64,000 nt of DNA from IMG/VR virus record IMGVR_UViG_3300032294_002926; one strand, given 5' to 3'. The notes under the pieces were generated by a model. The model was given only the letters and a program-made list of their open reading frames with translations, was not told the DNA's origin and did no database searches. Positions 20,259 through 52,266 of this stretch are shown piece by piece (position 1 is the stretch's first letter; each line of letters starts with the position of its first letter). A program made the translations under genes and the position numbers. Origin of the DNA: a virus. Lineage: Duplodnaviria > Heunggongvirae > Uroviricota > Caudoviricetes.

Positions 20259-20331
20259 GGGCGTATAGTGAAGTGGATCATCACACGGCTCTTCTAAAGC
20301 CTTATCCCTGGTTCGAATCCAGGTACGCCTG
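20259..20331 (+). tRNA. tRNA-Arg (anticodon UCU)
   Basis: Acceptor gggcgta/tacgcct; D-arm gtga-agtggatca-tcac; anticodon loop cuUCUaa; T-arm cctgg-ttcgaat-ccagg. Confidence 0.7.
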
Positions 20332-24460: not shown

Positions 24461-24534
24461 GCGGAATTCGTCTAATGGTAAGACAAGAGATTCCAAACCT
24501 CTTGATGCGAGTTCGATTCTTGCATTCCGTGCCA
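24461..24534 (+). tRNA. tRNA-Trp (anticodon CCA), with encoded CCA
   Basis: gcggaat..attccgt acceptor; D-arm gtct-aatggta-agac; anticodon loop uuCCAaa; T-arm gcgag-ttcgatt-cttgc. Confidence 0.8.
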
Positions 24535-24535
24535 T

Positions 24536-24609
24536 ACCCAATTAGATCAGCGGACTAGAGTACTTGGTTACGACCCAAGGTGCCCCAGGTTCAAATCCTG
24601 GATTGGGTG
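24536..24609 (+). tRNA. tRNA-Arg (anticodon ACG)
   Basis: Acceptor acccaat/attgggt; anticodon arm cttgg-ttACGac-ccaag; T-arm ccagg-ttcaaat-cctgg. Body closely resembles bacterial tRNA-Arg(ACG). Confidence 0.75.
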
Positions 24610-24656
24610 TAGGGTGTTATGTTTTTCAGTTTCTCGATGCCCTCTAAAAATAGTAG

Positions 24657-24743
24657 AAACTGATATGGAAGTGTGGCAGAGTCTGGTTTATTGCGTTTGT
24701 CTTGAAAACAAATGAGGGTAACACCTCCACTAGTTCGAATCTA
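24657..24743 (+). tRNA. tRNA-Ser (anticodon UGA), type II
   Basis: Acceptor ggaagtg/cacttct; anticodon arm tttgt-cuUGAaa-acaaa; long variable arm; T-arm ctagt-tcgaatc-(ctag). Confidence 0.75.
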
Positions 24744-24759
24744 GTCACTTCTGCTTACT

Positions 24760-25365
24760 TTATAATTTATTAAATATAATATTTTCTATTATATTTAAAA
24801 TCTTTATAAAGTTTTGAATTTTATTGTACTTTATCCAAGATGTATCTATGACGCAAAGTTCAATCTTTTCTTCTAGACAAGACTGAAACTTACGATTATC
24901 GTTATTTTGGATTTGATTCAATTTTTCTTGCCCATATATAGGTTCATAATGAAAAATTCCGTTAAGTTCAAACGCCAATTTGAGTTCAGGTATATAAATG
25001 TCTAATTCGGAATTGATAGCATCTTTTCGATTGAAAAGAAACTCATAGGAATACCTTTTGGTCAATTCTTCTTGTAAGAATAACTCTAGTTTGGAAACTC
25101 TTGTTCCTTGAGTTTTGTGAGTATTGTTATAAGTTGCAGCACAACTTCTGGAACAAAAATCATTTTTTGTTTTCTTTTGGTCTACCGGTCTTTTGTAAAA
25201 TTTTTTTCCGCAGTATTTACACTCTTTTATATTGTTTTTTCTATCACTTCTTTGATGATTATTGAAACAATCTCTGGAGCAAAAATTTCTATTTTTAGTT
25301 CTTTTAATTTCATATGGTGCTTTTTTAAAAATTTTATTACAGTGTAGACATTTTACGTCTATCAT
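24760..25365 (-). CDS. Putative homing endonuclease: N-terminal tandem Cys4 zinc fingers plus a C-terminal Vsr/DUF559-like PD-(D/E)xK domain; same family as ORF 1166..1882
   Basis: CLHCNK..CSRDC and CKYCGK..CSRSC; ELDIYIPELKLAFELNGIFHYEP...IELCVID parallels FIPDINLIIEYHGFRFHDN of the ORF in the intein gap. Opposite strand, embedded among tRNA genes. Confidence 0.55.
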   Translation of the reverse strand: MIDVKCLHCNKIFKKAPYEIKRTKNRNFCSRDCFNNHQRSDRKNNIKECKYCGKKFYKRPVDQKKTKNDFCSRSCAATYNNTHKTQGTRVSKLELFLQEELTKRYSYEFLFNRKDAINSELDIYIPELKLAFELNGIFHYEPIYGQEKLNQIQNNDNRKFQSCLEEKIELCVIDTSWIKYNKIQNFIKILNIIENIIFNKL

Positions 25366-25444
25366 TTATAATATAAGGAAAGTGATGTATTATTTATATA
25401 TTTTCAATTCTTTTACTTTCCGTTAATATTTAAAATTTCATTAT

Positions 25445-25520
25445 GGCGTAGTAGACAAATTGGATAAAGTCTCCACACTTTCAATGTGGATTTTTGAGGG
25501 TTCGAGTCCCTTCTACGCTT
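25445..25520 (+). tRNA. tRNA-Glu (anticodon UUC)
   Basis: Acceptor ggcgtag/ctacgct (G1-U72); anticodon arm ccaca-cuUUCaa-tgtgg perfect; T-arm gaggg-ttcgagt-ccctt. Confidence 0.6.
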
Positions 25521-25642
25521 TTTAGGTTTCTAGATAACCTAAACGTATAAGATTATCGTTAAATCTTCGACGACCTCCTCACAGTGTCGTAATATGCGAG
25601 GTGCTTAACGTTAAGATTGTTCCTCTTTATTGGGGAACTTCA

Positions 25643-25714
25643 CCAGGAGTAAGTCAGAGGTAGACGGCACCGTTTGGGGCGGTGAAGGCATTGGTTCGAT
25701 CCCAATCTTCTGGA
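25643..25714 (+). tRNA. tRNA-Pro (anticodon UGG)
   Basis: C1-G72 acceptor ccaggag/cttctgg; anticodon arm caccg-uuUGGgg-cggtg; T-arm attgg-ttcgatc-ccaat. Confidence 0.65.
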
Positions 25715-25790
25715 CTTGAAGAATACTAGTAAAACTTCAACCGATTTTACATGCGTCGGATAATATTCTAAAATATAGAATGCATTGTGT

Positions 25791-25875
25791 GCTGGAGTTA
25801 GCGTAGAGGTCGAACGCACGGCACTTGTAACGCCGCTCCGAAAGGACACCGCAGGTTCAAATCCTGTCTCCAGCT
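25791..25875 (+). tRNA. tRNA with a long variable arm (type II-like); anticodon loop CUUGUAA, so isotype unresolved (UGU/Thr by register, GUA/Tyr if shifted); anticodon stem has an A31-C39 mismatch
   Basis: Perfect 7-bp acceptor gctggag/ctccagc; T-arm gcagg-ttcaaat-cctgt; 15-nt variable region ctccgaaaggacacc; loop identical to T4 tRNA-Thr CUUGUAA. Confidence 0.5.
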
Positions 25876-27711: not shown

Positions 27712-28248
27712 ATGACTATTAATAAAACAATTCTGTTGAACACCGATTCTTACAAGTTTTCGCAATACAATCAATATCCCGAAGGGACTACGAATGTATA
27801 TTCCTATGTAGAAAGTCGTGGAGGTACTTGGAACCAAACTGTTTTCTTCGGACTTCAAATCTTTCTGAAAGAGTATCTGTCTAATCCTATTACTCAGGAT
27901 GATATTGATACCGCAGAACTTATTACTCAAGCACACGGAGAACCTTTCAATCGTGAAGGTTGGGAGTATATTCTTCGTGAACACGGTGGTAAGTTGCCTA
28001 TTCGTATTAAAGCAGTTCCCGAAGGTTCTGTAATTCCTGTAAAGAATGTTCTTGCGACTGTTGAGAACACTGACCCTCAATGTGCCTGGATTACAAGTTA
28101 CATTGAGACTTCACTTCTCAGGAGTATTTGGTATGGAACTACTGTTGCTACCAACTCTTATGAGAGCAAGAGGATTATTCACGATTACTTGGTGAAGACT
28201 GGAGACCCAAGTTTGATTGAGTTCAAACTGCACGATTTCGGTGCTTAA
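27712..28248 (+). CDS. nadV: Nicotinamide phosphoribosyltransferase (NadV/NAMPT), exon 1; reading frame runs into an in-frame stop inside the intron
   Basis: LLNTDSYKFSQY...KLHDFG aligns with the NAMPT N-terminus up to the conserved HDFG(Y/A)RGVSS junction. Confidence 0.8.
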   Translation: MTINKTILLNTDSYKFSQYNQYPEGTTNVYSYVESRGGTWNQTVFFGLQIFLKEYLSNPITQDDIDTAELITQAHGEPFNREGWEYILREHGGKLPIRIKAVPEGSVIPVKNVLATVENTDPQCAWITSYIETSLLRSIWYGTTVATNSYESKRIIHDYLVKTGDPSLIEFKLHDFGA

Positions 28249-29171
28249 TTAACTTCGGGCACCTAACTTTGTGAACTGCTGGAACCCCTAAGTTGCTTAG
28301 GTAATATGGAAATCAGCATCCAAGACTACTATTTTAGTAGTAAGGTTCAGAGACCATCGAAAAGGTTATTTACAAATAACACTTAGTAGAGTACACTCAA
28401 GCGAGTGGAAGCGCAAAGGCGATACTATGTATCGTAAGATATGGTCCAATCTTCATTGAAAAATGAAGCAGTTCATACTCAGCATAAATACTTCCAGACC
28501 AAAATTGTAAAATATTTATGTTGAAACTATTAGAAACTATACCTAGTTTAGAAACATTTAAGGGGTATTCGATTTCAGATGATGGTAGAATCTTTTCACA
28601 TAAGACTAACAAATTTCTGAAAACGAGTATAAGAATGGGAAATGGATGTGCTTATGGAAGAATTGGATTAAACGATTCTAACGGAATCCGTAAAACAATT
28701 TCAATTCATAGACTCGTTTGTTTAGCATTTAAATATAACCCCAACCACAAAAATCTAACTGTGAATCACATAGACGAAAACACTTTTAATAATCATATTG
28801 ATAACTTAGAGTGGATGCCTCTTTCTGAAAACATTAGATATTCTCAGGCAAACAAAAGTTATGTCGGAGACCCAGATAAACTTACATTAGAGTTTAATGA
28901 AGGAAACTACACGGTACAGGAGTTTGCCAAAAAGTATAATACTCCATTAAATACTATGTGGGATATTCTAAACAAATTAGGTTCAGTCAAAAACAACAAA
29001 AAAAGAAGAGTCTTTGGTAAAAAAATACGACTTGAAATTGCTTTAATGAGAAAATCAGGAAAAGCACTAAAAGAAGTATCTGAAAAGTATCAATGTTCTC
29101 AATCTTTTGTTTCTTTAGTTTTTAAAGAGTATGAACGGGGTATGCTTAGCGAACATGCCTGAATAACTCCG
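28246..29171 (+). mobile_element. Putative group I intron (~0.92 kb) splitting nadV, carrying an HNH homing endonuclease ORF
   Basis: The NAMPT alignment breaks after LHDFG(A) and resumes at RGVSSFESAGIGG ~925 nt later. ~270 nt non-coding structured leader; boundaries follow U (5') and G (3'). Confidence 0.55.
28518..29162 (+). CDS. HNH homing endonuclease (HNH_3 / AP2-domain type, I-HmuI-like) inside the nadV intron
   Basis: SIHRLVCLAFKYNPNHKNLTVNHIDENTFNNHIDNLEWMP is the HNH_3 core; C-terminal helix-turn-helix-like basic tail. Confidence 0.7.
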   Translation: MLKLLETIPSLETFKGYSISDDGRIFSHKTNKFLKTSIRMGNGCAYGRIGLNDSNGIRKTISIHRLVCLAFKYNPNHKNLTVNHIDENTFNNHIDNLEWMPLSENIRYSQANKSYVGDPDKLTLEFNEGNYTVQEFAKKYNTPLNTMWDILNKLGSVKNNKKRRVFGKKIRLEIALMRKSGKALKEVSEKYQCSQSFVSLVFKEYERGMLSEHA

Positions 29172-35547: not shown

Positions 35548-35807
35548 AACTAATTCAAAAACCAATTGTTTTAATGGAGAAATTCCCCTACCGATATGTC
35601 GAGGTGGGGGTTCTTGAAATTAATGGTATGCCTGATTATCGAATTCAAAAAATGGATTCCTATACAGGACGATACAAAGACATGTATCTTTTGGATAACA
35701 AAGATCAACTGATTACTGCAATGGATAACTTTTCTTATACCTGTTGGTTGGACCCTGATGGAGTTGCTTGTTATGCTAAGAAAGATGAGGATGATGATGG
35801 CACCTAA
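35544..35807 (+). CDS. Hypothetical small protein
   Basis: ORF. Confidence 0.35.
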   Translation: MKLIQKPIVLMEKFPYRYVEVGVLEINGMPDYRIQKMDSYTGRYKDMYLLDNKDQLITAMDNFSYTCWLDPDGVACYAKKDEDDDGT

Positions 35808-35895
35808 ATAATAATTGATGAATTTATAAAACATAAAAGTTTTATAGATAAATCAATTTTCTAAAAATACAAAAAGTCTTTAAAAGTATTGTTTA

Positions 35896-36141
35896 GTGTT
35901 AAAGCATCTCCTTATAAAAAATACAGATTTATTAAGATACATTGGAAATATTTTTCTTTTATCTGGATATTTCATCCTTTTATGGGGGGATCCCAAAATC
36001 GGATTAATTGCAAAATGTATTGGTAACGCTTGTGTCATACCTTTTGCAATCAAGTATAAATTTTGGGACATTCTTGTTATTTGTGGATTTTATGCCGCAA
36101 TTGAGATTCCGAAACTCATTCAATTAACTTTTCCTAGTTAG
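35896..36141 (+). CDS. Hypothetical small membrane protein
   Basis: Two predicted transmembrane helices. Confidence 0.3.
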   Translation: MLKHLLIKNTDLLRYIGNIFLLSGYFILLWGDPKIGLIAKCIGNACVIPFAIKYKFWDILVICGFYAAIEIPKLIQLTFPS

Positions 36142-36276
36142 TATAAACTAGGTGGTGGAGTCAATGACCCGTTTTGATCCTTTGGCAAGGATCTTTAAAT
36201 ATGTTAAATTGTTTTTAATAATTGAAATTAAATAATGTCTAGAAAATCGGATTCAATAATAATACAGGAGTTGTAA

Positions 36277-37059
36277 GTGATTGGATTTAATTATCTCGGT
36301 CAACATGGTAGATTGGCTAATCAAATGTTTCAATATGCAGCATTGAGGGGGATTGCGGATTATAAAAATTATGAGTTTTGTATTCCACAAACTAATTATA
36401 ATGATAAGTGGAAGGATAATAAGCTTTTTGAAATCTTTGAATTAAAAAATCTTGAGAATATTTGTTATTTACCTGGACAATTTTATCAAGAAAGACAGTA
36501 CCATTATGATGAAGAATATGTTCAAAATTGCCCTGATAATGTAAATTTGCATGGATATTTTCAGACTGAAAAATATTTCAAGCATATCGAGGATAGCATA
36601 AGAGAAGATTTTACTTTTAAGGAATATATACTAGAACCTTGCACTAAAAATTTTAATTTTGATGAAATTATTGCTTTACATGTAAGAAGAACTGATTATG
36701 TCTATAATTCAATAAATCATCCTCTATGTGATATAAATTATTATGATATGGCATTAAAACATTTTGACGATACTATTCCTGTAATGATTTTTTCTGATGA
36801 TATTGAATGGTGTAATATGCAAAATATATTTAAGTCAGATAGATTTTTGGTATCAGAATCATATAATACATATATTGATTTGTGTTTAATGAGTATGTGT
36901 CATTATCATATTATTGCTAATAGTTCTTTTAGTTGGTGGGGTGCATGGTTAGCTAAATCTAAAAAAGTAATAGCTCCCCAAAAATGGTATGGAACTACTG
37001 GCGATACTTCTAAAAATAAAACTCACGATCTTTATTTAAATGAGTGGATTGTTATATGA
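36277..37059 (+). CDS. Glycosyltransferase family 11 (alpha-1,2-fucosyltransferase-like)
   Basis: N-terminal GRLANQMFQYAALRGIA is the GT11 signature (GRLGNQMFQYA). Confidence 0.6.
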   Translation: MIGFNYLGQHGRLANQMFQYAALRGIADYKNYEFCIPQTNYNDKWKDNKLFEIFELKNLENICYLPGQFYQERQYHYDEEYVQNCPDNVNLHGYFQTEKYFKHIEDSIREDFTFKEYILEPCTKNFNFDEIIALHVRRTDYVYNSINHPLCDINYYDMALKHFDDTIPVMIFSDDIEWCNMQNIFKSDRFLVSESYNTYIDLCLMSMCHYHIIANSSFSWWGAWLAKSKKVIAPQKWYGTTGDTSKNKTHDLYLNEWIVI

Positions 37060-43856: not shown

Positions 43857-44634
43857 ATCAGCATATAAACTTCAAAATCTTCCTCCGATTTATTATATTA
43901 ATCTGGATGATCAACCAGAAAGAAAAGAATATATGGAAGAACAGTTTAAATATTGGGAAATTGAAAATTACACTCGTATCTCAGCGTATGATGGTCGTAA
44001 TGATGACCTAAGTGACTTTCTTAAAGGGAAATACCCAGATGGAATGTCTTCTGGTGAAGTTGGATGTACATTATCACACTTAAAAGCAATTCAACATTGG
44101 TATGATACTACTGATTCATCTTATGCTCTTTTTTTAGAGGATGATGTAAATTTTGATTTGGTCAAATTTTGGAATTTTACTTGGAAAGATTTTATTTCTA
44201 AGATTCCTTATGATTGGGATGTAATTCAATTGGCAATTATTTGCACTGGTGATCTTCATATTAAACTTCACAAAAGATTTATAAATGATTTTTCTACTGC
44301 TGCTTATATTTTAACGAGACATCATGCAGAAAAACTTCTTAAGTTTCATGTTAAAAATGGAAAGTATAAATTAGATCAAGGAGTTAGACCTAGAGCAGTT
44401 GCAGATGATCTAATTTATAACTCAGGTAATACTTTTTCTATTCCTTTGTTTCTTTATAGAATTGAATTGGGTTCATCTATTCATCAAGAACACATTGATG
44501 TTTATCATCGTTCTAGTCATCAAGGATTGTTGCAATTTTGGCAGAATCAAGGATTCAATATGAAAATTGATGATTTGATGAATTATGACCCATATCTAGG
44601 TCGGATCACAGGAACATTTGAATTAAATCAATGA
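43843..44634 (+). CDS. Glycosyltransferase family 25 (LPS/LOS glycosyltransferase)
   Basis: IYYINLDDQPERKEYMEEQF matches the GT25 N-terminus. Confidence 0.6.
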   Translation: MDKNKSAYKLQNLPPIYYINLDDQPERKEYMEEQFKYWEIENYTRISAYDGRNDDLSDFLKGKYPDGMSSGEVGCTLSHLKAIQHWYDTTDSSYALFLEDDVNFDLVKFWNFTWKDFISKIPYDWDVIQLAIICTGDLHIKLHKRFINDFSTAAYILTRHHAEKLLKFHVKNGKYKLDQGVRPRAVADDLIYNSGNTFSIPLFLYRIELGSSIHQEHIDVYHRSSHQGLLQFWQNQGFNMKIDDLMNYDPYLGRITGTFELNQ

Positions 44635-44647
44635 TGTATCAGCAAAT

Positions 44648-44929
44648 GTGAACATTGGGATTCTTGACAGGATTTTTTTCTTAGGGTATGATACTCGGGT
44701 AAATCTTCACAAAAGGTTAATGACTGTTACAAAAAATGAAAATCAGCAAATGAATGTGTTTGCGAAAGAACCTCCAATGTATATTTCAAACGAGGATATG
44801 ACTCGATACGAACAGCAACCCTATGCAGAAAGATCGGAAATTATGAATTCTCGATTTGCAATGATCGGAGTTGTTTCAGGTGTAATTTCTTATATAATTA
44901 CCGGTAAATTTTTCTTTGGCGTATTTTAA
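44648..44929 (+). CDS. hli: High-light-inducible protein (HLIP, one-helix CAB-like)
   Basis: AERSEIMNSRFAMIGVVSGVISYIITG core motif (E..N.R.AM.G). Confidence 0.75.
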   Translation: MNIGILDRIFFLGYDTRVNLHKRLMTVTKNENQQMNVFAKEPPMYISNEDMTRYEQQPYAERSEIMNSRFAMIGVVSGVISYIITGKFFFGVF

Positions 44930-44946
44930 TTAAGGAGTAAAGTATT

Positions 44947-45066
44947 ATGAAATTTGGTTTTACTAAACAAGCAGAACTTCTGAATGGAAGAATTGCGATG
45001 ATTTCTTTTTTGATTATGACTGGAGTGTATCTCAAAACTGGTCATCTGTTGCCAGGAATCTTTTGA
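44947..45066 (+). CDS. hli: High-light-inducible protein (39 aa) not in the ORF track
   Basis: MKFGFTKQAELLNGRIAMISFLIMTGVYLKTGHLLPGIF: AE..NGR.AM helix plus the G..LPG tail typical of cyanophage HLIPs. Confidence 0.7.
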   Translation: MKFGFTKQAELLNGRIAMISFLIMTGVYLKTGHLLPGIF

Positions 45067-45097
45067 TGTATTATAATTCCCTTTTAAGGGAGGCGTT

Positions 45098-45259
45098 ATG
45101 CCTAGAAATAATTTAACAAAAGATGAAATTCGCTGTCAAGTTTTAAAAATAAAAAATCAATTAGATCAAGAAAACGTTAATTTTACTTCCGATCCAAAAG
45201 GACTAGTTCATAAATATTTGGATTTGGTTCTCTCTAAAATAGAAGAATATCGAAATTAA
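45098..45259 (+). CDS. Hypothetical small protein (53 aa)
   Basis: GGAGG ribosome-binding site 6 nt upstream of the ATG. Confidence 0.35.
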   Translation: MPRNNLTKDEIRCQVLKIKNQLDQENVNFTSDPKGLVHKYLDLVLSKIEEYRN

Positions 45260-45538
45260 TTTTTTTCCTTGGAATGAATCCAAGTTTTTAATTCATGTAA
45301 ATATGATCTTAACATCTCTGCCTTCTCTAGATGCCATGAATTCTTGGTCTTGAAATACTGAGTGTTATGATTGTCAATTGCTTTCAAAATCTGATGTATT
45401 GGAGCATTCCAAGGTTCCCTAACCGGAGTATTGAACTCTCTCGGCATTGTTTTAAGATCATATTTACTTTATTTATTTAAAAACTTGACATGAGTTTAAA
45501 TTTATTCTAGTGTAAAAAGATGAACTTAAAAATTAATT

Positions 45539-45859
45539 ATGAATTCTATTATTGCTTGTAATCCCAACACATCACCAAAGACTCTAGAATCTCTAGTGAC
45601 TGATGAGGACTGGTGTGTTCGTTATGAAGTTGCTCGTAATCCCAACACATCATCAGAGACTCTAGAATCTCTAGCGACTGATAAGGATTGGAGTGTTCGT
45701 GTGGGAGTTGCTTCTAATCCCAACACATCATCAAAGACTCTAGAATCTCTAGCGACTGATGAAGATTGGGAGATTCGTATGTTAGTTGGCGAAAATCCAA
45801 AGTCATCAGAACTTGCACGACGACTGGTTCTGATGACAAATAATAAACCGTCCACCTGA
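45539..45859 (+). CDS. HEAT-repeat (PBS-lyase HEAT-like) protein, three ~33-aa repeats
   Basis: Repeated D(E/K)DW.VR..VA.NPNTSS.TLESLAT units. Confidence 0.55.
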   Translation: MNSIIACNPNTSPKTLESLVTDEDWCVRYEVARNPNTSSETLESLATDKDWSVRVGVASNPNTSSKTLESLATDEDWEIRMLVGENPKSSELARRLVLMTNNKPST

Positions 45860-45911
45860 GTTCTTCAGAACTCTCAGGTGTCTTATACTTTTTTAATTCA
45901 ACTCTTGAGTT

Positions 45912-46268
45912 ATGTATTTTTATCAAAAAATCGAACTTGCTGAAAATCCCAACACACCATTAAAAACTCTAGAAATCTTAGCGACTGATCATGATTGGCG
46001 TGTTCGTGATGGAGTTGCTTCTAATCCCAGCACATCATCAAAAATTCTAGAATTTTTAGCAACTGATGAGGACTGGTGTGTTCGTTATGAAGTTGCTGAA
46101 AATCCCAACACATCATCAAAGACTCTAGAATCTCTAGCGACTGATACCGATTTTTATATTCGTAGCGAAGTTGCTTATAATCCCAACTCAACTGAACTTG
46201 CAAGAAGACTGGTTCTGATGACAAATAATCGATCAGTAAGTAAACTGTCACAGTGCTCATCAAACTAA
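45912..46268 (+). CDS. HEAT-repeat (PBS-lyase HEAT-like) protein, tandem paralog
   Basis: Same repeat unit and the same C-terminal ELARRLVLMTNN. Confidence 0.55.
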   Translation: MYFYQKIELAENPNTPLKTLEILATDHDWRVRDGVASNPSTSSKILEFLATDEDWCVRYEVAENPNTSSKTLESLATDTDFYIRSEVAYNPNSTELARRLVLMTNNRSVSKLSQCSSN

Positions 46269-46341
46269 GAAATTTTCGTTCTATAATTCATTCGTTTAAA
46301 GTTGATTCAGCAGAAAACATAGTCTTCCACTTTCTTTTTCT

Positions 46342-47856
46342 GTGAAAATCGACCAATTCACAATCAACTTGGAGAACATCATGACTTTTATTACTGCATT
46401 AGAAAATGAACTGAATACCACCGAGACTTTGAATGGAGCAAAAGCATATTCTTCGACTTTGAATTATTGCCTAGATCTTTTTGGTAAGATCGGATCATGT
46501 CGTAATGATATGAATCAAGCAAAGAAACTCTTTGCTCGCGCTTATCAAGTAAATCCTGAAACTGCTACTCGTATTTTGTTCTGGGTGCGCGATATTCGGG
46601 GTGGGCAAGGTGAACGTGAAGTTTTTCGTCAACTATTTAAATATCTTGTAGAACAGGATTCACAAATTGCCGTAAAACTTGTTTCTCTAGTGCCTGAATA
46701 TGGTCGTTGGGATGATCTTCTTATTCTGGAGGATACTTCTGCATGGGAAGCAGTTCTTGATCTTATCAAAACTCAATTACTTCAAGATGTTGCAGTTCTT
46801 GCTGATCAATCATCTAATCAAGTAAGTTTAATTAGCAAATGGTTGCCTTCAATCAATGCTTCTAGTAAAGACAGTAAGCGTTTAGGGCGTAAGATTGCAT
46901 CTTATCTTGGTATGACAGAACGTCAGTATCGTCAAACTCTGTCGAAACTCCGTAATCATATTAAGATTATTGAAACTGCAATGTGTTCTAGAGAATGGTC
47001 TGCAATTGACTATTCAAAAGTACCTTCTCGTGCTTCATTTATGTACCGTAAGGCATTTGCAAAGCAGGATGCAACTCGTTATGCTCAGTATCTGAGTTCT
47101 GTTGAAAAGGGTGAAGCAAAAATCAACGCTGCAACTCTTTATCCTTATGATATTGTTTATCAGTATCTCCACAACGGTGCTCGTAACGATAAGACTATTG
47201 ATCTTCAATGGAATGCTCTGCCTAATTATATGGGAGATCAAACTTTCAACGGTCTAGTAGTTGCAGATGTTTCAGGGTCTATGTATGGTATGCCTATGGC
47301 AGTTTCCATCTCTCTTGCGATGTATATTGCAGAACGCAATACCTCTCCTGCTTGGAAAAATAAGTTTCTAACTTTTTCTGCACAACCTAAATTGCAAACT
47401 ATTGTTGGTTCTACGATTGGAAAACGTATTGAGAATCTTTCCCGTGCTGATTGGGATATGAATACTGATTTGATTGCAGTATTTAAAACTATTCTAAGCG
47501 CAGCTGAGAAAAACTCTGTTGCATCCGAAGACATGCCTCAGAAATTGATTATTGTTTCTGATATGCAATTTGATCGATGCTGCTTTTCTAATAAGAGAAC
47601 TAATTTTGAGCAAATTCAAAAACTCTATCGTAAGGCGGGTTATGAGATGCCTCAATTGGTATTCTGGAATGTGAATTCTCATTCAAACGTTCCTATTACC
47701 TCTCACGATACTGGTACTTGTCTTGTGTCCGGTTGTAGTCCTTCTATTCTTAAAACCGTACTTACTGGTGGTACTCTGTCACCTGTTGACATTATGAACG
47801 ATGCGGTGTATAATAACAGGTATGATGAGATCGGTCGAGTCTTTAACACCCCTTAA
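46342..47856 (+). CDS. von Willebrand factor A (vWA/MIDAS) domain protein
   Basis: LVVADVSGSMYG is a MIDAS DxSxS motif preceded by a hydrophobic beta-strand. Confidence 0.5.
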   Translation: MKIDQFTINLENIMTFITALENELNTTETLNGAKAYSSTLNYCLDLFGKIGSCRNDMNQAKKLFARAYQVNPETATRILFWVRDIRGGQGEREVFRQLFKYLVEQDSQIAVKLVSLVPEYGRWDDLLILEDTSAWEAVLDLIKTQLLQDVAVLADQSSNQVSLISKWLPSINASSKDSKRLGRKIASYLGMTERQYRQTLSKLRNHIKIIETAMCSREWSAIDYSKVPSRASFMYRKAFAKQDATRYAQYLSSVEKGEAKINAATLYPYDIVYQYLHNGARNDKTIDLQWNALPNYMGDQTFNGLVVADVSGSMYGMPMAVSISLAMYIAERNTSPAWKNKFLTFSAQPKLQTIVGSTIGKRIENLSRADWDMNTDLIAVFKTILSAAEKNSVASEDMPQKLIIVSDMQFDRCCFSNKRTNFEQIQKLYRKAGYEMPQLVFWNVNSHSNVPITSHDTGTCLVSGCSPSILKTVLTGGTLSPVDIMNDAVYNNRYDEIGRVFNTP

Positions 47857-47894
47857 TAGGGGTTGACAAACTCAGATTTTCATCTTATAATCTC

Positions 47895-48012
47895 TTTAGA
47901 TGGTTCAGCAATCAAATCTCTTTTTTGGATAAAGATCAAACACCATCTAGTTAATACGTATATTTCCTCTAATTTGCACCCATAGATAGTTCAGCAATCA
48001 AACTCTTTTATC
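47895..48012 (+). repeat. Intergenic direct repeats: gat(g/a)gttcagcaatcaaa(t)ctctttt twice, ~85 nt apart
   Basis: Copies at ~47900-47925 and ~47986-48011, upstream of the tRNA-like element. Confidence 0.4.
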
Positions 48013-48069: not shown

Positions 48070-48189
48070 CGGGGGGTGGCCTAATTGGAAAAGGCAACAG
48101 TTAAAAATTTATCTAGATTATAGATAATAACAGCAATTAATAAACCACTAAGAAACAGTTTATTGTAGGTTCGAGTCCTACTCCCCCGA
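48070..48189 (+). ncRNA. tRNA-like element (120 nt) with canonical acceptor, D-arm and T-arm but a ~50-nt AT-rich insertion in place of a recognisable anticodon arm
   Basis: cgggggg/tcccccg acceptor; D-arm gcct-aattggaaa-aggc; T-arm gtagg-ttcgagt-cctac; no complementary anticodon stem found. Confidence 0.3.
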
Positions 48190-48489: not shown

Positions 48490-50025
48490 ATGAAATTCAA
48501 TCACAAAATTGCAAGTCTAATCATTCCTGCAGTTATTGCTTCTTCTTCTTCTTTTCTTCCAGTAGAAAGTGTGAAAGCAGATGTAGTTCCTCTAAACACG
48601 CAATCACAGGTATCTAAAGCATCAGAATCTCCAGTATTCTTTATTCTTAAATATGCATTGTTGTTTGGAGGTGTATCAGGAACTTTGTTGATTTTGATAT
48701 CTTTCTTTTTCAGAAAAGTTGTCAATACCAACATGGTCCATATTGTTCAGAATGGTAAAACTACAGTTCCTTATGGATCAAATTTGCCTAATGGAAATGT
48801 TTATTATGAAATTCCTTCCTGGGTTCCAAAGTTTGGTGTTTCTGTTATCAAACTTCCGGTAAATAATTTTGATCTGTCTCTTCAAGATTATGAAGCTTAT
48901 GATGAAGATAGAGTTCCTTTTTTGGTAGATGTTACGGCATTTTTTAGAATCATTGATCCCACTGTTGCATCTCAAAGAATTTCTAACATCTCAAGTCTTG
49001 AACAGCAATTGACACTCATCGTTCAGGGTGCTGTGAGAAGGGTTCTCGCCTCTGAGAAAATTGATAACATCATGACTCAAAGATCTACTTTTGGTGAGAG
49101 TTTTTCGAATGAAGTTAGAGATCAATTAGCTGAATGGGGAGTAAGTTCTGTGAGAAATATGGAACTTATGGACATTCGTGATTCTCCTAAATCTTCGGTA
49201 ATTTCTAATATTATGGCTAAAAAGATCTCAGAGATTGAGAAAGATAGTCGTATTACTGTTGCTGAGAATAATCGTCTAGCAACTGTTGCTGAAGTTGAAA
49301 ATAAGCGTACATCTGAAATTTCTTCAGTGGAAGCAAATCGTGAAATCGCACTCAGTAAACAACTTGCTGAACAACAAGTTGGAGAAAGATCTGCTGAGAA
49401 AGATAAAGTAATTGGTATAGCACAAGAACAATCAAAGCAACAAGTTCTTCTGCAACAAGCTGAGACCAAAGAAAAGGATCTTGCAGTTCAGAGAGTTCAA
49501 GAAATCAAATCCGCTGAAATTACACGAGACAGAGCACTTGTTCAGGCTGAAGAATTGCAAAAAGTTGCTAAAATTAGTAAAGAAACTGCATTGATTGAGG
49601 CATCTCAGCAAAAAGAAACTTCTATTCTTATTGCTGATGGTAAGTTGGAATCCGAGAAAAGAAACGCTGAAGCTATTCAGACTACTGGTATTGCTAAGGC
49701 AGAAGCTGATAAAGCTATGCAACTTGCACCAGTTAGTGCTCAAATTGCTCTTTCACAAGAGATTGGTAATAATGAATCTTATCAGAAGTATCTTGTTCTC
49801 GTTGAAGCACTTAAATCTTATATGTCTGTAGGTGTTGAACAAGCTAAGGCACTTCAATCTGCGGAAGTTAAGGTTATTGCCAATGGTGGATCTACCTCTG
49901 ATGGTGTGAAAAATGTGATGGATCTCTTTAGTTCTAAAGGTGGAACTTCTCTTGCATCTGCATTTGAAGCATTTGCTCAAAGTGATCTTGGGGCAGATTT
50001 GTTGAATAAAATTACTCAATCTTGA
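48490..50025 (+). CDS. SPFH/Band-7 (flotillin-like) membrane protein with a long C-terminal coiled coil
   Basis: Signal/anchor plus a second transmembrane helix; SPFH core PFLVDVTAFFRIIDP...; extended E/A/Q/K-rich coiled-coil tail as in flotillins. Confidence 0.6.
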   Translation: MKFNHKIASLIIPAVIASSSSFLPVESVKADVVPLNTQSQVSKASESPVFFILKYALLFGGVSGTLLILISFFFRKVVNTNMVHIVQNGKTTVPYGSNLPNGNVYYEIPSWVPKFGVSVIKLPVNNFDLSLQDYEAYDEDRVPFLVDVTAFFRIIDPTVASQRISNISSLEQQLTLIVQGAVRRVLASEKIDNIMTQRSTFGESFSNEVRDQLAEWGVSSVRNMELMDIRDSPKSSVISNIMAKKISEIEKDSRITVAENNRLATVAEVENKRTSEISSVEANREIALSKQLAEQQVGERSAEKDKVIGIAQEQSKQQVLLQQAETKEKDLAVQRVQEIKSAEITRDRALVQAEELQKVAKISKETALIEASQQKETSILIADGKLESEKRNAEAIQTTGIAKAEADKAMQLAPVSAQIALSQEIGNNESYQKYLVLVEALKSYMSVGVEQAKALQSAEVKVIANGGSTSDGVKNVMDLFSSKGGTSLASAFEAFAQSDLGADLLNKITQS

Positions 50026-50125: not shown

Positions 50126-50197
50126 ATTCGGGTAGTCTAGTGGTCAGGACGAGCAGACAATGCATATGGAGTTCGGGTTCGATTCCCGATCCGAATA
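50126..50197 (+). pseudogene. Degenerate tRNA-like sequence (Glu/Asp-type D-arm, canonical T-arm, no pairable anticodon stem)
   Basis: Acceptor attcggg/tccgaat; D-arm gtc-tagtggtcag-gac; T-arm tcggg-ttcgatt-cccga; central region agcag-acaatgc-atatg cannot pair. Confidence 0.3.
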
Positions 50198-50221
50198 TTT
50201 GACTAAATATTTATTATCTTT

Positions 50222-50292
50222 GCGGATATAGTGTAGTGGTAACATATGATCCTTCCAAGTTCCAGTCACGGGTTCGAATCCCGTTATCCGCT
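50222..50292 (+). tRNA. tRNA-Gly (anticodon UCC)-like, homologous to T4 tRNA-Gly, with a weak anticodon stem (3/5 pairs)
   Basis: gcggata...tatccgc acceptor identical to T4 tRNA-Gly ends; anticodon loop cuUCCaa; T-arm acggg-ttcgaat-cccgt. Confidence 0.5.
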
Positions 50293-50517
50293 TTCAAATC
50301 TCATGAGTCCGCTGAGTACAAATACGGATTGTCAGGATCTCATGATGGTGTTATGATAAGTACATCGGAAAAAAGGAAAACCTGATTCTGATACTCCCGT
50401 TAACCGAGACCTATGGGGAGTCTAAACACGTCTCTTATCTTGCCTTCTCTTGAGGGTGGAGAAGGAAAATAACGTAAAGAATCTTCCCTAGATTCACTTT
50501 ATTTTCTTTAAATTCTT

Positions 50518-51597
50518 ATGACTGCTACAATTGCTACACGTTCACAAAGTAACGCTTGGGAAGATTTTTGCCAGTGGGTTACTTCAACCAATAATAGGTT
50601 GTACGTTGGGTGGTCGGGAACCATTATGATTCCTTGCCTTCTTGCTGCTACTATTTGCTTTATTCTTGCTTTTATTGCAGCACCTCCCGTTGACATAGAT
50701 GGCATTAGAGAACCTGTTGCTGGGTCTCTTATGTGGGGGAATAACATTATCTCGGGTAATGTTATTCCAAGTTCTAATGCTATCGGACTTCATTTTTATC
50801 CTATCTGGGAAGCACAATCTCTTGAAGAATGGTGTTACAACGGAGGTGAATATCAACTCATCATCTTCCATTTTCTAATTGGTATTTGGATGTATGCTAT
50901 GAGAGAGTGGGAACTTTCTTACCGTCTTGGAATGCGCCCTTGGATTTTTGTTGCATATTCTGCTCCTGCCATTGCAGCAACTGCGGTATTTCTTCTTTAT
51001 CCTATTGGTCAAGGTTCTTTCTCTGATGGTATGCCTCTGGGTATTTCTGGAACCTTTAATTTTATGCTTGTCTTCCAAGCAGAACATAATATCCTTATGC
51101 ACCCCTTCCATCAAATGGGAGTTATCGGTGTTTTCGGTGGTGCTTTTGCTGGAGCAATGCATGGTTCCCTCGTAACCTCTTCAATTGTTCGTGAAACCAC
51201 TGAGACTGAATCTCAGAACTATGGTTACAAGTTCGGACAAGAGGAAGAAACTTATAACATTGTTGCTGCACATGGTTATTTCGGTCGTCTTATTTTCCAA
51301 TATGCGTCCTTCAATAACTCACGTTCACTACATTTCTTCCTTGCTGCACTTCCTGTAATTGGCATTTGGTTTACTTCTCTTGGCATTGCCACTATGAGTT
51401 ATAACCTCAACGGGTTTAACTTCCAACATAGTGTTCAAGATGCACAAGGACGAGTTATTCCTACTTGGGCAGATGTTCTCGGAAGAGCAAATTTGGGTCT
51501 AGAAGTCATCCACGAACGTAACGCACACAATTTTGCATTGGATTTGGCGACAGTATCAACTACAGAAGTAGCACTCATTGCACCTGAAATTGGTTGA
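50518..51597 (+). CDS. psbA: Photosystem II reaction-centre protein D1, full length and uninterrupted
   Basis: 359-aa product with diagnostic D1 motifs ([10 protein letters not shown]..., [26 protein letters not shown], ...ALIAPEIG). Confidence 0.95.
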
Positions 51598-51669: not shown

Positions 51670-52266
51670 ATGATAACATATATTGCAACAAATACTTTGA
51701 ATGGAAAGTTTTATATTGGAAGCACTTTTAATTTTGAAAGAAGAAAACAAGAACATTTAGAATCAAAAAATAATTATCCATTTCAAAACTCTCTCCGTAA
51801 AAATCCAGATAAGTTTGAATGGGAAACTTACATTGATGAATATGATGAACCAATTTTAGAGCAATCATTATTGGATGTGTGGTGGGGGAAGTCGCAATGT
51901 TATAATATAAATCAATATGCTTCTCGTCCACCAGACCCAACGGGAAGAATTCTTAGTAAAGTGTCAAAAGATAAAATAAGTAAAAAATTAAAGGGTAGAG
52001 TAATAAATGAAAAAACTAGAAAGGCAGTTTCATACTCAAATAAAACTAGACATCTTAATGAAGAAACTTTAAAGATAAAATCTGATGCTATACTTGGAGA
52101 AAAGAACCCATTTTATGGAAAAAAACATAGTGAAGAAACTATTCGTAATTTATCCGAAAAAAGAAAAGGTTTAAAATGGTGGTATAATGAGAAAACTAAA
52201 AAAACTTGTATGTCTAAAGAATTGCCGGGTGAAGGATGGAGACGGGGTAGAAAATACTCATCTTGA
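51670..52266 (+). CDS. GIY-YIG homing endonuclease with NUMOD3-like DNA-binding repeats, immediately downstream of psbA
   Basis: MITYIATNTLNGKFYIGST (GIY-YIG); repeated ..KNPFYGKKHSEETIRNLSEKRKG.. NUMOD3-like units. Confidence 0.65.
   Translation: MITYIATNTLNGKFYIGSTFNFERRKQEHLESKNNYPFQNSLRKNPDKFEWETYIDEYDEPILEQSLLDVWWGKSQCYNINQYASRPPDPTGRILSKVSKDKISKKLKGRVINEKTRKAVSYSNKTRHLNEETLKIKSDAILGEKNPFYGKKHSEETIRNLSEKRKGLKWWYNEKTKKTCMSKELPGEGWRRGRKYSS

What the first reader, a model, noticed from the sequence alone, without database searches (positions are those of the whole stretch)
44648..46268. Light-harvesting-related block: two hli genes (one 39-aa, unannotated in the ORF track) followed by tandem HEAT-repeat (PBS-lyase-like) genes
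The second hli (44947..45066) is below the ORF-track size cutoff but has the canonical AE..NGR.AM…LPG sequence. Downstream are two paralogous genes made of 33-aa DxDW.VR..VA.NPNTSS.TLESLAT repeats. These resemble E/F-type phycobilin-lyase HEAT repeats, suggesting interference with phycobilisome or antenna assembly in addition to the psbA/hli photoprotection set.
Basis: partly seen in the sequence, partly recalled or inferred. Interest (0 to 1): 0.55.

Follow-up and report, generated by a model that had tools for sequence, protein, structure and literature searches.

The report
Cyanophage hli pair and LRV-repeat genes
A cyanophage carries the usual pair of small photoprotection (hli) genes; a separate neighbouring unit holds two small genes built from 26-residue helical 'LRV' repeats with fast-varying exposed positions, which are probably binding modules and not pigment-attaching enzymes.

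Summary
The sequence features are real, but they do not form one light-harvesting block.

- **hli unit.** Both hli genes match phage HLIP family phrog_178. hli1 is 44720..44929 (the true start is this ATG, not the GTG at 44648). hli2 is 44947..45066 (39 aa). With a conserved 53-aa ORF they form a promoter-to-hairpin unit. This tandem pair is ordinary for T4-like cyanophages.
- **Separation.** A convergent 63-aa gene (45256..45447, minus strand) lies between that unit and the repeat genes.
- **Repeat genes.** The genes at 45539..45859 and 45912..46268 each have three 26-aa repeats, not 33-aa, plus a C-terminal cap.
  - They match Pfam LRV (E 1e-18 and 3e-16) and PDB 1LRV.
  - HEAT_PBS gives no hit. 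CpcF scores 20 bits against a cutoff of 220, and NblB scores 18 against 300.
- **Relatives.** Cultured cyanophages lack these genes. At least 141 copies occur in uncultured phage contigs, often several per genome, at varying positions and with varying repeat number.
- **Variation.** It concentrates on one face of helix 2 (repeat positions 18, 19, 22, 23, 26), while scaffold codons stay nearly identical.

Best reading: these are small acidic α-solenoid binding modules under diversifying selection, with unknown targets. They are new members of a known repeat family, of moderate interest.

The parts
44664..44692 (+). sigma-70-like promoter candidate (TTGACA-17-TATGAT) upstream of hli1
   Evidence: Matches 11 of 12 consensus positions. 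The whole 2.1-kb region has no more such sites than shuffled sequence (7 found, 9.0 expected), so this is a consensus match only.
44720..44929 (+). hli1, a 69-aa high-light-inducible protein with an N-terminal extension. The mechanical ORF start is the GTG at 44648.
   Evidence: phrog_178 E 1.6e-25, residues 1-69 aligned to profile positions 1-68 of 68. Pfam Chloroa_b-bind scores 16.6 bits, below its cutoff of 22.3. The motif E-IM-N-S-R-F-A-M-I-G is read directly from the sequence. The N-terminus weakly resembles Psb34 (20 bits against a cutoff of 45).
44947..45066 (+). hli2, a minimal 39-aa high-light-inducible protein
   Evidence: phrog_178 E 3.6e-12. Pfam Chloroa_b-bind scores 20.9 bits against a cutoff of 22.3. 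tblastn finds 286 cyanophage records annotated as HLIP. An AAGGAG site lies 8 nt upstream of the ATG.
45098..45259 (+). 53-aa conserved phage ORF of unknown function, last gene of the hli unit
   Evidence: phrog_566 E 7e-13. It sits next to hli-hli again in IMG/VR locus L054, at 61% identity.
45268..45284 (+). terminator-like hairpin followed by a T run, between convergent genes
   Evidence: 6-bp stem, then TTTTT. Two such sites were found in the region against 0.8 expected, so the evidence is weak.
45256..45447 (-). 63-aa conserved gene on the opposite strand, separating the hli unit from the LRV genes
   Evidence: 75% DNA identity to S-SRM01 CDS QPX48242, which is also 63 aa and on the minus strand. 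Homologues occur in L044, L073 and L078. No Pfam or PHROG family matches.
45539..45859 (+). LRV-A: 106 aa, pI 4.7. It has a short N-cap, three 26-aa LRV repeats (45560..45793) and a C-cap helix NPKSSELARRLVLMTNN (45794..45844) followed by a short tail.
   Evidence: Pfam LRV E 1e-18 (66.8 bits, cutoff 21.6) and LRV_2 E 5e-11. Tandem Repeats Finder period 78, 88% matches. Repeat register. pI.
45912..46268 (+). LRV-B: 118 aa, pI 4.8. It has an N-cap helix, three 26-aa LRV repeats (45945..46178) and a C-cap helix NPNSTELARRLVLMTNN with a tail (46179..46265).
46342..47856 (+). Neighbouring DUF2828/DUF7788 gene (phrog_850, named 'RNA-binding protein'). It shares the raised-GC segment with the LRV genes. 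It is context only; no functional link is shown.
   Evidence: Pfam E 1.9e-51 and 6.5e-42. phrog_850 E 9.5e-148. GC is 0.36-0.40 over about 45400..47900, against 0.28-0.33 in the flanks. Homologues lie within a few kb of LRV genes in L024, L027, L035, L043 and L046.

Best explanation
The interval holds three juxtaposed units in a flexible region of a divergent T4-like cyanomyovirus (Kyanoviridae-like).

**Unit 1: the hli unit.** It is a standard cyanophage photoprotection unit: candidate promoter, hli1, hli2, the phrog_566 ORF, then a hairpin. It encodes one long and one minimal one-helix chlorophyll-binding protein.

**Unit 2.** A 63-aa gene reads convergently into unit 1.

**Unit 3: the LRV genes.** Two tandem paralogues each encode a 12-13 kDa, acidic, soluble α-solenoid of the LRV (leucine-rich repeat variant) family. 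Each has an N-cap, three 26-residue helix-turn-helix repeats (NPNT.P.ETL..LATD.D..VR..VA.) and a subfamily-specific C-terminal capping helix.

- *Shown:* family identity, fold and repeat architecture.
- *Shown:* almost all variation lies at repeat positions 18, 19, 22, 23 and 26. With i, i+1, i+4, i+5, i+8 spacing these sit on one face of helix 2. Scaffold codons stay nearly identical.
- *Shown:* this is a multi-copy gene family in related uncultured phages, with variable copy number and variable repeat number.
- *Inferred:* the stacked helix-2 faces form a ligand-recognition surface, as in designed alphaRep binders.
- *Inferred:* the proteins act as small stoichiometric binders, inhibitors or adaptors of host or competitor macromolecules during infection, and diversify under selection.
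- *Conclusion:* they are not bilin lyases, and nothing ties them functionally to the hli genes.
For: **Family and fold**
- Pfam LRV E 1e-18 and 3e-16, plus LRV_2.
- A profile of the family hits 1LRV at E 7e-17.
- The AlphaFold2 model has pLDDT 95.6 and 8 helices, two per repeat.
- BFVD hits are uncultured-phage 'Leucine rich repeat variant' proteins (E about 1e-6, TM 0.8).

**Architecture**
- The period is 78 nt, with 3 repeats plus a cap in each gene.

**Variation pattern in the window**
- All six repeats use the same codon at 13 of the 26 positions; the five family-wide hypervariable positions (18, 19, 22, 23, 26) each take 2-5 different residues.
- Differing codons are 125 nonsynonymous against 28 synonymous.
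- Nei-Gojobori estimates give hypervariable dN 0.9-1.0 against scaffold dS 0.19.

**Variation pattern across the family**
- 773 distinct repeats from 199 ORFs have entropy of 3.5-3.8 bits at positions 18, 19, 22, 23 and 26. Entropy is below 0.7 bits at positions 4, 9, 12, 13, 15, 20, 21 and 24.
- In 140 of 152 ORFs, hypervariable pN exceeds scaffold pS.
- Repeat pairs with an identical 57-nt scaffold differ at a median of 4.5 of the 21 nt in the variable codons (32 pairs, 17 ORFs).

**Comparison with designed binders**
- The designed alphaRep binders carry their randomised positions at 18, 19, 22, 23, 26 and 30. Crystal structures show that this surface makes the contacts (PMC3754942).

**Multi-copy, mobile family**
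- IMG/VR holds 141 relatives in 73 loci, with up to 10 LRV ORFs per 16-kb locus and 1-23 repeat hits per ORF.
- Positions relative to shared genes differ between relatives.

**Composition**
- pI is 4.7 and 4.8.
- Aromatic residues make up 26% of hypervariable positions in the phage loci, against 13% in cellular arrays.

**Against a lyase role**
- No HEAT_PBS hit.
- CpcF 20 bits against 220, and NblB 18.5 against 300.

**Separate units**
- Promoter and hairpin scan; convergent conserved gene; synteny; GC step at about 45400.
Against: - No target, expression timing or phenotype is known. The binding role is inferred only from fold and variation pattern.
- The same hypervariable positions occur in cellular LRV arrays. 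The pattern is a property of the repeat family and not a phage-specific signature, and surface positions of any solenoid vary most.
- The dN and dS figures come from non-independent repeat pairs and few sites.
- Unit duplication or gene conversion could keep scaffolds identical without any selection on the variable sites.
- No promoter class is enriched upstream of LRV genes.
- No PADLOC or anti-defence match was found.
- Physical proximity to hli and psbA in this phage and in L054 does not exclude a photosynthesis-related target.
- The promoter and terminator calls are consensus matches at about the chance rate.
Confidence: 0.6

Rival explanations
1. One reading: the repeat proteins are E/F-type phycobilin-lyase-like or NblB-like HEAT proteins that interfere with phycobilisome assembly or degradation. 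On this view they form a light-harvesting module together with hli and psbA.
For: - The only NCBIfam models touched at all are CpcF and NblB, very weakly.
- The genes lie about 4-5 kb upstream of psbA and 0.5 kb downstream of the hli pair. An LRV gene is also on the small contig L054 that carries hli and psbA.
Against: - No HEAT_PBS hit at E<=1.
- CpcF scores 20.4 bits against a cutoff of 220, and NblB 18.5 against 300. Each match covers only part of the protein (18 and 36 residues).
- In the Foldseek PDB search, 5n3u_B ranks 48th (E 0.11, TM 0.42).
- The proteins have only 3 repeats in 106-118 aa.
- The family also occurs in phage-like contigs with no cyanophage marker among their called genes, in a Moorella phage, and in cellular genomes of many non-phototrophic phyla.
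- Adjacency to hli is not conserved.
- Cultured cyanophages with hli and psbA lack the family.
Confidence: 0.07
2. The repeats form a modular nucleic-acid reader in the manner of PUF, PPR or TALE proteins. Each repeat would contact one base through the residues at positions 22, 23 and 26, with 18 and 19 assisting. The target might be an RNA handled by the neighbouring DUF2828 (phrog_850, 'RNA-binding') protein.
For: - Near-identical repeat scaffolds with a few hypervariable residues on helix 2 are the hallmark of TALE and PUF codes (my own knowledge).
- Position 26 is dominated by Q, R, E and K, and position 22 by W, Y, C and R.
- An LRV gene lies immediately upstream of the DUF2828 gene here and in L046, and within a few kb in four other loci.
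Against: - Both proteins are acidic (pI 4.7 and 4.8). The family median is 5.3, and only 35 of 199 have pI above 7.
- Every repeat carries a conserved acidic D-E-D patch.
- Three repeats would read only about 3 bases.
- The AlkC names are automatic labels, and the match to AlkC is no better than to dozens of other solenoids.
- Linkage to DUF2828 is not fixed.
Confidence: 0.1
3. The genes are fast-turnover flexible-region cargo with little or no function in this phage. The pattern would then reflect only unit duplication and relaxed constraint on solvent-exposed residues.
For: - dN/dS between LRV-A and LRV-B is about 0.9 over the whole gene.
- Copy number, position and repeat number vary freely between relatives.
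- LRV-A has a truncated N-cap.
- Cultured cyanophages do without the family.
Against: - Reading frames are intact.
- Scaffold residues are strongly conserved: scaffold pN 0.17 is below scaffold pS 0.32 family-wide.
- The predicted fold is very confident.
- The family persists in at least 141 copies in viral contigs.
- Hypervariable-site divergence exceeds synonymous divergence in 140 of 152 ORFs, which relaxed constraint alone does not produce.
Confidence: 0.12
4. A dedicated diversification mechanism writes the variable codons. This could be a DGR-like retroelement or templated micro-conversion from a pool of repeats.
For: - Repeat pairs with zero differences in 57 scaffold nt still differ at a median of 4.5 of 21 variable-codon nt. 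Some differing codons carry 2 nt changes.
- Interleaved scaffold codons (V20, R21, V24, A25) stay identical, so ordinary long-tract conversion cannot explain the pattern.
Against: - No extra template-like copy of the repeat exists in the 64-kb window.
- No reverse-transcriptase family appears among the neighbours listed for related contigs, apart from an RNase H-type RVT_3 hit.
- The variable codons are not of the NNY-from-AAY type only (TGG, AGA, GGA, GAG and CAA are common), and changes are not restricted to adenines.
- Most of the common codons are single-step mutational neighbours (TAT, TGT, TGG, AGT, GGT, GAT, AAT), as expected for point mutation with selection.
Confidence: 0.05

Closest known systems
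Leucine-rich repeat variant (LRV) family: Pfam PF01816 and PF25591, with the Azotobacter vinelandii LRV protein (PDB 1LRV) as structural prototype
   Same: - Same repeat signature (L..L..D.D..VR..VA).
- Scores far above the Pfam cutoff.
   Different: - The period is 26 aa with an NPNT turn, against 24 aa in 1LRV. The alignment shows 2-residue gaps in the 1LRV chain at that turn.
- There is no N-terminal Fe-S domain.
- The proteins have only three repeats and a phage-specific C-cap (ELARRLVLMTNN).
- No member of the family, this one included, has a known function.
Small LRV proteins of uncultured phages (BFVD/UniProt 'Leucine rich repeat variant [uncultured Caudovirales phage]'; IMG/VR contigs; metagenomic proteins P0001-P0032)
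   Same: - Same size class, repeat type and capping helices.
- 50-60% identity. BFVD TM is 0.74-0.81.
- Some sit in T4-like cyanophage contexts: PhoH, Thy1, gp59 and GT25 in L006, and Kyano_Gp96 in L001.
- They are often multi-copy.
   Different: - No protein at 90% identity or more is on record.
- Position in the genome and repeat number (2-3 in the closest subfamily) differ.
- None has been studied experimentally, as far as my paper searches show.
alphaRep designed binders, built on thermostable HEAT-like repeats
   Same: - Two-helix repeats whose variable residues sit at positions 18, 19, 22, 23 and 26 of helix 2 and form the binding surface (PMC3754942).
- Natural variation here falls at the same helical positions.
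   Different: - alphaRep repeats are 31 aa, artificial, and randomised on purpose.
- Sequence identity is only about 20%.
- The resemblance says how the protein may work, not that it belongs to that family.
E/F-type bilin lyases and relatives (CpcE/CpcF, MpeQ, NblB; Pfam HEAT_PBS)
   Different: - No HEAT_PBS hit.
- Equivalog models score less than 10% of their cutoffs.
- The proteins are half the size or less.
- There is no conserved linkage with bilin or phycobiliprotein genes.
TALE, PUF and PPR modular repeat proteins
   Same: Arrays of repeats nearly identical at the DNA level except for a few specificity codons. I make this comparison from my own knowledge of those families.
   Different: - Different folds or repeat lengths.
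- Those proteins are nucleic-acid readers and usually basic. These are acidic and have only three repeats.
- No homology is claimed.
Cyanophage high-light-inducible proteins (HLIPs; phrog_178), typically tandem and near psbA in T4-like cyanophages
   Same: - Full-length profile matches.
- 286 cyanophage records carry homologues of hli2.
- Phage B3 has the same GT25...hli-hli order.
- L054 has hli-hli-phrog_566-psbA.
   Different: Nothing notable. hli1 has NSR instead of NGR in the chlorophyll-binding motif, and hli2 is at the short end of the size range (39 aa).

Membership tests
LRV repeat family (Pfam PF01816) | Profile score above the curated gathering threshold | tested here: met
   66.8 bits (LRV-A) and 59.0 bits (LRV-B) against a cutoff of 21.6, with 3 stretches each. 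LRV_2 scores 42.8 and 37.6 against 27.
LRV repeat family (Pfam PF01816) | Tandem short (about 24-26 aa) repeats, each forming two helices that stack into a right-handed solenoid like 1LRV | tested here: met
   [not shown]
LRV repeat family (Pfam PF01816) | N-terminal 4Fe-4S domain, as in the A. vinelandii prototype. This is a feature of that protein, not of the repeat family. | tested here: not met
   The proteins start 7-11 residues before the first repeat, and no further Pfam domain is found.
HEAT repeat (Pfam PF02985) | Profile score above the gathering threshold | tested here: inconclusive
   LRV-A scores 32.1 bits and LRV-B 23.6 bits against a cutoff of 23.5, but no single stretch passes on its own. 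HEAT_2 is below its cutoff (24.6 and 21.3 against 27.7).
E/F-type phycobilin lyase, NblB (HEAT_PBS) | Match to HEAT_PBS, or to the CpcE, CpcF or NblB equivalog models at their cutoffs | tested here: not met
   No HEAT_PBS hit at E<=1. CpcF scores 20.4 and 15.8 bits against 220, and NblB 18.5 against 300.
E/F-type phycobilin lyase, NblB (HEAT_PBS) | Size and architecture: about 170-270 aa with 5 or more HEAT-like repeats, acting as an E/F heterodimer or a fused chain | tested here: not met
   106 and 118 aa, with 3 repeats plus caps. The 5n3u chains are 170 and 266 residues. Heterodimer formation was not testable.
E/F-type phycobilin lyase, NblB (HEAT_PBS) | Bilin attachment or detachment activity on phycobiliproteins | not testable with these tools
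   This needs co-expression with an apo-phycobiliprotein and bilin, or phycobilisome spectroscopy in a host.
E/F-type phycobilin lyase, NblB (HEAT_PBS) | Structure closer to lyases than to other solenoids | tested here: not met
   [not shown]
High-light-inducible proteins (one-helix Chl a/b-binding family) | Match to an HLIP family profile | tested here: met
   phrog_178 E 1.6e-25 (hli1, full length) and 3.6e-12 (hli2). The general Pfam Chloroa_b-bind model scores 16.6 and 20.9 bits, below its cutoff of 22.3. Falling short of that model is, to my knowledge, usual for these short proteins.
High-light-inducible proteins (one-helix Chl a/b-binding family) | Chlorophyll-binding motif E..N.R.AM..F/G followed by one hydrophobic helix | tested here: met
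   Read from the translations. hli2 reads AELLNGRIAMISFLIMTGVYL. hli1 reads SEIMNSRFAMIGVVSGVISYIITG, with G changed to S in the NGR.
Diversity-generating retroelement target | A template repeat near-identical to the variable region, plus a reverse transcriptase nearby, with adenine-specific differences | tested here: not met
   There is no third copy of the repeat anywhere in the window. Variable-codon changes are not adenine-restricted. No RT family appears in the listed neighbour genes of relatives. The window's other ORFs were not all profile-scanned.

The most novel reading that the evidence does not exclude
A lineage of uncultured cyanomyoviruses, mostly known only from metagenomes, maintains a natural 'binder library'. 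It consists of many small LRV solenoid genes per genome. Their repeats are kept almost identical at the DNA level, while five to seven codons on one helix face are rapidly re-written and enriched in Trp, Tyr, Cys, Ser, Gly and Arg. The library would yield new inhibitors of host defence or metabolic proteins, possibly with help from a still unknown short-patch diversification process. The two window genes would be older, diverged members of that library.
Probability: 0.25. Interest if true: 0.7.

Novelty: new member of a known kind. Interest (0 to 1): 0.4.

Why it matters
**The hli pair.** It is routine cyanophage biology and needs no follow-up.

**Annotation.** The LRV genes correct a tempting misannotation. 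A HEAT-like gene next to photosynthesis genes is not thereby a phycobilisome lyase.

**A family worth a look.** The genes point to a little-noticed family.
- They are small capped α-solenoids, absent from the cultured cyanophages in GenBank.
- They are present in at least 141 copies in viral metagenome contigs, often many per genome.
- Their variation pattern resembles that of engineered binder libraries.

If these proteins prove to be target-specific inhibitors, they would be a compact new source of phage host-takeover or anti-defence factors, and of natural binder scaffolds.

**An evolutionary question.** The contrast between identical scaffolds and divergent specificity codons can be followed up with existing metagenomes.

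Tried and rejected
1. **DNA search in GenBank phages.** Megablast of 44600-46400 found nothing. The distant mode hit only the 63-aa gene and hli1. No close cultured relative is available for a DNA-level comparison of repeat expansion.
2. **Exact-protein look-up of LRV-A.** It is not on record.
3. **The search for related loci.**
   - With the single protein it found nothing.
   - It worked only with the closer alignment A2.
4. **Genome-collection scan with A2.** It used only the C-cap motif and found no relative. This supports 'phage-specific cap', but it is not a general test.
5. **PADLOC.** No meaningful hit.
6. **Literature.**
   - Searches for LRV with phage or cyanophage returned only unrelated NOD2 and plant LRR papers, or nothing.
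   - 'HEAT repeat' with cyanophage gave nothing relevant.
7. **Promoter motifs upstream of 195 LRV ORFs.** Neither sigma-70-like nor T4-late-like motifs are enriched over control ORFs. Expression class remains unknown.
8. **DGR idea.** Rejected for the window (codon patterns).
10. **afdb50 fold library.** It was unavailable.
Full report
**1. What is in the sequence**

The ORF list and raw sequence show, all on the plus strand unless stated:
- a GT25 glycosyltransferase gene ending at 44634;
- an ORF at 44648..44929;
- a 39-aa ORF at 44947..45066;
- a 53-aa ORF at 45098..45259;
- a 63-aa ORF on the minus strand at 45256..45447;
- two ORFs of 106 and 118 aa at 45539..45859 and 45912..46268;
- a 504-aa ORF starting at 46342.

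The window comes from a divergent T4-like cyanomyovirus.
- Megablast of the interval finds nothing in 50,697 GenBank phage records.
- Distant blastn hits only cyanophages: S-SRM01, S-SCSM1 and Sf-CH5/8.
- Elsewhere in the window, nrdA, nrdB and primase match Synechococcus phages B3, B23 and S-RSM4 and Prochlorococcus phage P-TIM68 at 73-76%.

**2. The hli genes**

- Both small proteins match the phage HLIP family phrog_178.
  - The first matches over its whole length when started at the ATG at 44720 (69 aa, E 1.6e-25).
  - The second matches at E 3.6e-12.
- The general Pfam Chloroa_b-bind model falls just below its cutoff for both.
- The chlorophyll-binding motif can be read directly: hli2 has E-LL-N-G-R-I-A-M, and hli1 has E-IM-N-S-R-F-A-M.
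- A TTGACA-17-TATGAT site lies at 44664..44692, inside the GTG-started ORF extension. An AAGGAG site precedes hli2. A hairpin with a T run (45268..45284) follows the 53-aa phrog_566 ORF. The scan finds such sites at about the chance rate, so these are only consistent with a three-gene unit.
- hli2 homologues are annotated as HLIPs in 286 cyanophage records.
- Phage B3 has the same order, GT25, then a lipoprotein gene, then hli-hli.
- The metagenomic locus L054 has hli-hli-phrog_566 followed directly by psbA.

This part of the finding is correct and ordinary.

**3. The repeat genes: observation**

- Tandem Repeats Finder gives a 78-nt period in both genes, with 88% and 80% matches.
- In protein terms, each gene has three 26-residue repeats that begin NPNT, followed by a C-terminal NP(K/N)S.ELARRLVLMTNN cap. 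The '33-aa' period in the finding is wrong.
- The two genes are 69.7% identical in protein, and the window holds no further copy.
- The repeats are not in simple register between the paralogues. A1 is closest to B2 (86% nt identity) and A2 to B1 and B3 (83% each).

**4. The repeat genes: family**

- Pfam places both in LRV (PF01816; E 1e-18 and 3e-16) and LRV_2. HEAT gives weaker cross-hits and HEAT_PBS gives none.
- A profile of the proteins and their metagenomic relatives hits the LRV crystal structure 1LRV at E 7e-17. The only other hits, PP2A-A HEAT repeats and a designed LRV peptide, are marginal.
- The AlphaFold2 model of LRV-B is very confident (pLDDT 95.6) and shows eight helices: an N-cap, two per repeat, and a long C-cap.
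- Foldseek against the PDB gives only weak solenoid hits.
- Foldseek against viral models finds small 'Leucine rich repeat variant' proteins of uncultured phages.
- NCBIfam touches the CpcF and NblB equivalogs at 16-20 bits against cutoffs of 220 and 300.

The proteins are therefore HEAT-like solenoids in the wide sense and members of the LRV family in the narrow sense. They fail every test for the E/F lyase family.

**5. Relatives and context**

- The 5.8-billion-protein search returns 32 relatives, the best at 52-55% identity and all metagenomic.
- An exhaustive scan of 1.84 billion cluster representatives gives 13,843 hits at E<=0.001, including giant multi-repeat proteins. The repeat type is very widespread.
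  - Hits include Campylobacterota, Bifidobacterium, Calothrix, CPR bacteria and Micrarchaeota.
  - No Synechococcus or Prochlorococcus appears among the 80 rows shown.
- The C-cap motif of the window's subfamily is not found in 185,579 species genomes.
- IMG/VR holds 141 relatives in 73 loci.
- The contexts of the relatives are phage-like.
  - L006 is T4-like cyanophage sequence, with PhoH, Thy1, gp59 and GT25.
  - L001 carries Kyano_Gp96.
  - Roughly 30 of the fetched loci share other genes with the window.
- Among cultured phages, only a Moorella phage matches.
- Copy number reaches 10 LRV ORFs in a 16-kb locus, with 1-23 repeat hits per ORF. The closest subfamily has 2 or 3 repeats.

**6. 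No conserved 'block'**

- In L054, the hli unit abuts psbA.
- In B3, hypothetical genes follow the hli pair, and the phage has no LRV gene.
- In L073 and L078, GT25 is followed by the 63-aa minus-strand gene, with no hli.
- In L018, L027 and L078, an LRV gene sits upstream of homologues of window genes at 35329-37059.
- In the window, GC rises from about 0.30 to 0.36-0.40 over the LRV and DUF2828 genes.

The hli unit and the LRV genes are independent modules that happen to be neighbours here.

**7. The variation pattern**

*In the window*
- All six repeats use the same codon at 13 of the 26 positions. Differences concentrate at positions 16, 18, 19, 22, 23 and 26.
- Differing codons are 125 nonsynonymous against 28 synonymous.
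- With the hypervariable set defined from the wider family, dN at those sites is 0.91 and dS at scaffold sites is 0.20.

*Across the family*
- In 773 distinct repeats from 199 ORFs, entropy is 3.5-3.8 bits at positions 18, 19, 22, 23 and 26. It is below 0.7 bits at positions 4, 9, 12, 13, 15, 20, 21 and 24.
- In the model these five positions are residues i, i+1, i+4, i+5 and i+8 of helix 2, that is, one face of that helix.
- In 140 of 152 ORFs, hypervariable pN exceeds scaffold pS.
- In some arrays (L034, L060, L016), the scaffold is nucleotide-identical between repeats while the variable codons are nearly saturated.
- Pairs with 0 differences in 57 scaffold nt differ at a median of 4.5 of 21 variable-codon nt.

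*Comparisons*
- The designed alphaRep libraries randomise positions 18, 19, 22, 23, 26 and 30 of their repeat. Crystal structures show that this surface binds the target (PMC3754942).
- Cellular LRV arrays vary at the same positions. The pattern belongs to the repeat family.
- The phage copies are richer in aromatic residues there (26% against 13%) and in Cys (7% against 2%). Those p-values are inflated because the repeats are related.

**8. Mechanism**

Shown:
- the fold, the repeat architecture and the position of the variation;
- the multi-copy and mobile character of the family;
- acidity (pI 4.7 and 4.8), and no further Pfam domain apart from the repeats.

Inferred:
- the stacked helix-2 faces form a recognition surface;
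- the proteins work as small stoichiometric binders of host or competitor macromolecules;
- the family diversifies under selection after frequent unit and gene duplication.

I put about 0.6 on this reading. The class of target (defence, metabolism or photosynthesis) is open.

Rivals:
- bilin-lyase or NblB-like role, 0.07;
- modular nucleic-acid reader, possibly linked to the adjacent DUF2828 'RNA-binding' gene, 0.10;
- near-neutral flexible cargo, 0.12;
- a dedicated diversification mechanism, 0.05. This one is compatible with the main reading but unsupported: the window has no template copy, the changes are not adenine-restricted, and no RT was seen.

**9. Novelty and verdict**

- The hli pair is already known biology.
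- The LRV genes are new members of a known repeat family whose phage members are already labelled in public databases. I found no paper discussing them in cyanophages.
- The lyase interpretation is not supported.
- The multi-copy family with an identical scaffold and variable codons in related uncultured phages is the most interesting by-product. It lies mostly outside this window.
- Interest: 0.4.

Noticed in passing
L034 5521-6096; L060 7218-7811; L016 7995-8279; L059 3560-4213 (IMG/VR loci): LRV arrays whose 26-aa repeats are nucleotide-identical in the scaffold (pS 0.00-0.03), while codons 16-19, 22, 23 and 26 differ by up to 2 nt per codon (pN 0.25-0.54). Some whole units are exact duplicates. 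The pattern resembles TALE RVDs or a designed library.
   Followed up: partly
window 46342..47856: A DUF2828 plus DUF7788 protein (phrog_850 'RNA-binding protein', with a weak vWA match) lies directly downstream of LRV-B. It is 65-75% conserved in L024, L027, L035, L043 and L046, usually within a few kb of LRV genes. It shares a raised-GC segment (0.36-0.40) with the LRV genes.
   Followed up: partly
window 50381..50478, 50518..51597 and 51670..52266; L054 938-2252: psbA (TIGR01151, 695 bits) is preceded by a PhotoRC-II RNA motif (55.6 bits). It is followed by a free-standing group-I-intron-type (GIY-YIG) homing endonuclease gene (TIGR01453, 68.6 bits). The window's psbA is uninterrupted. In related locus L054 the psbA match is split by about 220 nt, probably an intron.
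   Followed up: no
window 28184..28468: A group I catalytic intron (Rfam RF00028, 61.3 bits) lies across the 3' end of ORF 27712..28248 and ends before ORF 28518..29162, so it probably interrupts a gene.
   Followed up: no
window 20259..20331, 24461..25874, 48070..48189, 50126..50292: Ten tRNA matches, including a cluster of six at 24461..25874. The match at 48070..48189 is unusually long (120 nt) and might carry an insertion or intron.
   Followed up: no
window 44720..44929 (hli1 residues 4-35): The N-terminal extension of hli1 weakly resembles the N-terminal arm of the PSII assembly factor Psb34 (NF033486, 20 bits against a cutoff of 45). A long hli next to a minimal hli recalls the HliA/B-HliC pairing in Synechocystis (my own knowledge). 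This is speculative.
   Followed up: no
window 48490..50025: A 511-aa protein with a weak flotillin/SPFH-like match (FloT, 42 bits against a cutoff of 700), lying between the DUF2828 gene and psbA.
   Followed up: no
window 45560..45793 compared with 45945..46178: Repeats of the two paralogues are not in simple register. A1 is most similar to B2 and shares its specificity residues E-W-C-Y-E. A2 is closest to B1 and B3. This suggests repeat shuffling or a register shift after duplication.
   Followed up: partly
L153 and L130 (Candidatus Micrarchaeota contig JAWDMB010000001.1); L152 (Thermanaerothrix MAG): Cellular genomes hold long arrays of the same NPNT-type 26-aa LRV repeat, with 8 or more pattern matches per locus. 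Their scaffolds are also near-identical and their codons variable at the same positions.
   Followed up: partly
window 45256..45447 (minus strand): A 63-aa ORF with no family match is conserved in freshwater phage S-SRM01 (75% DNA identity) and in L044, L073 and L078. In L073 and L078 it follows the GT25 gene within about 250 nt.
   Followed up: partly
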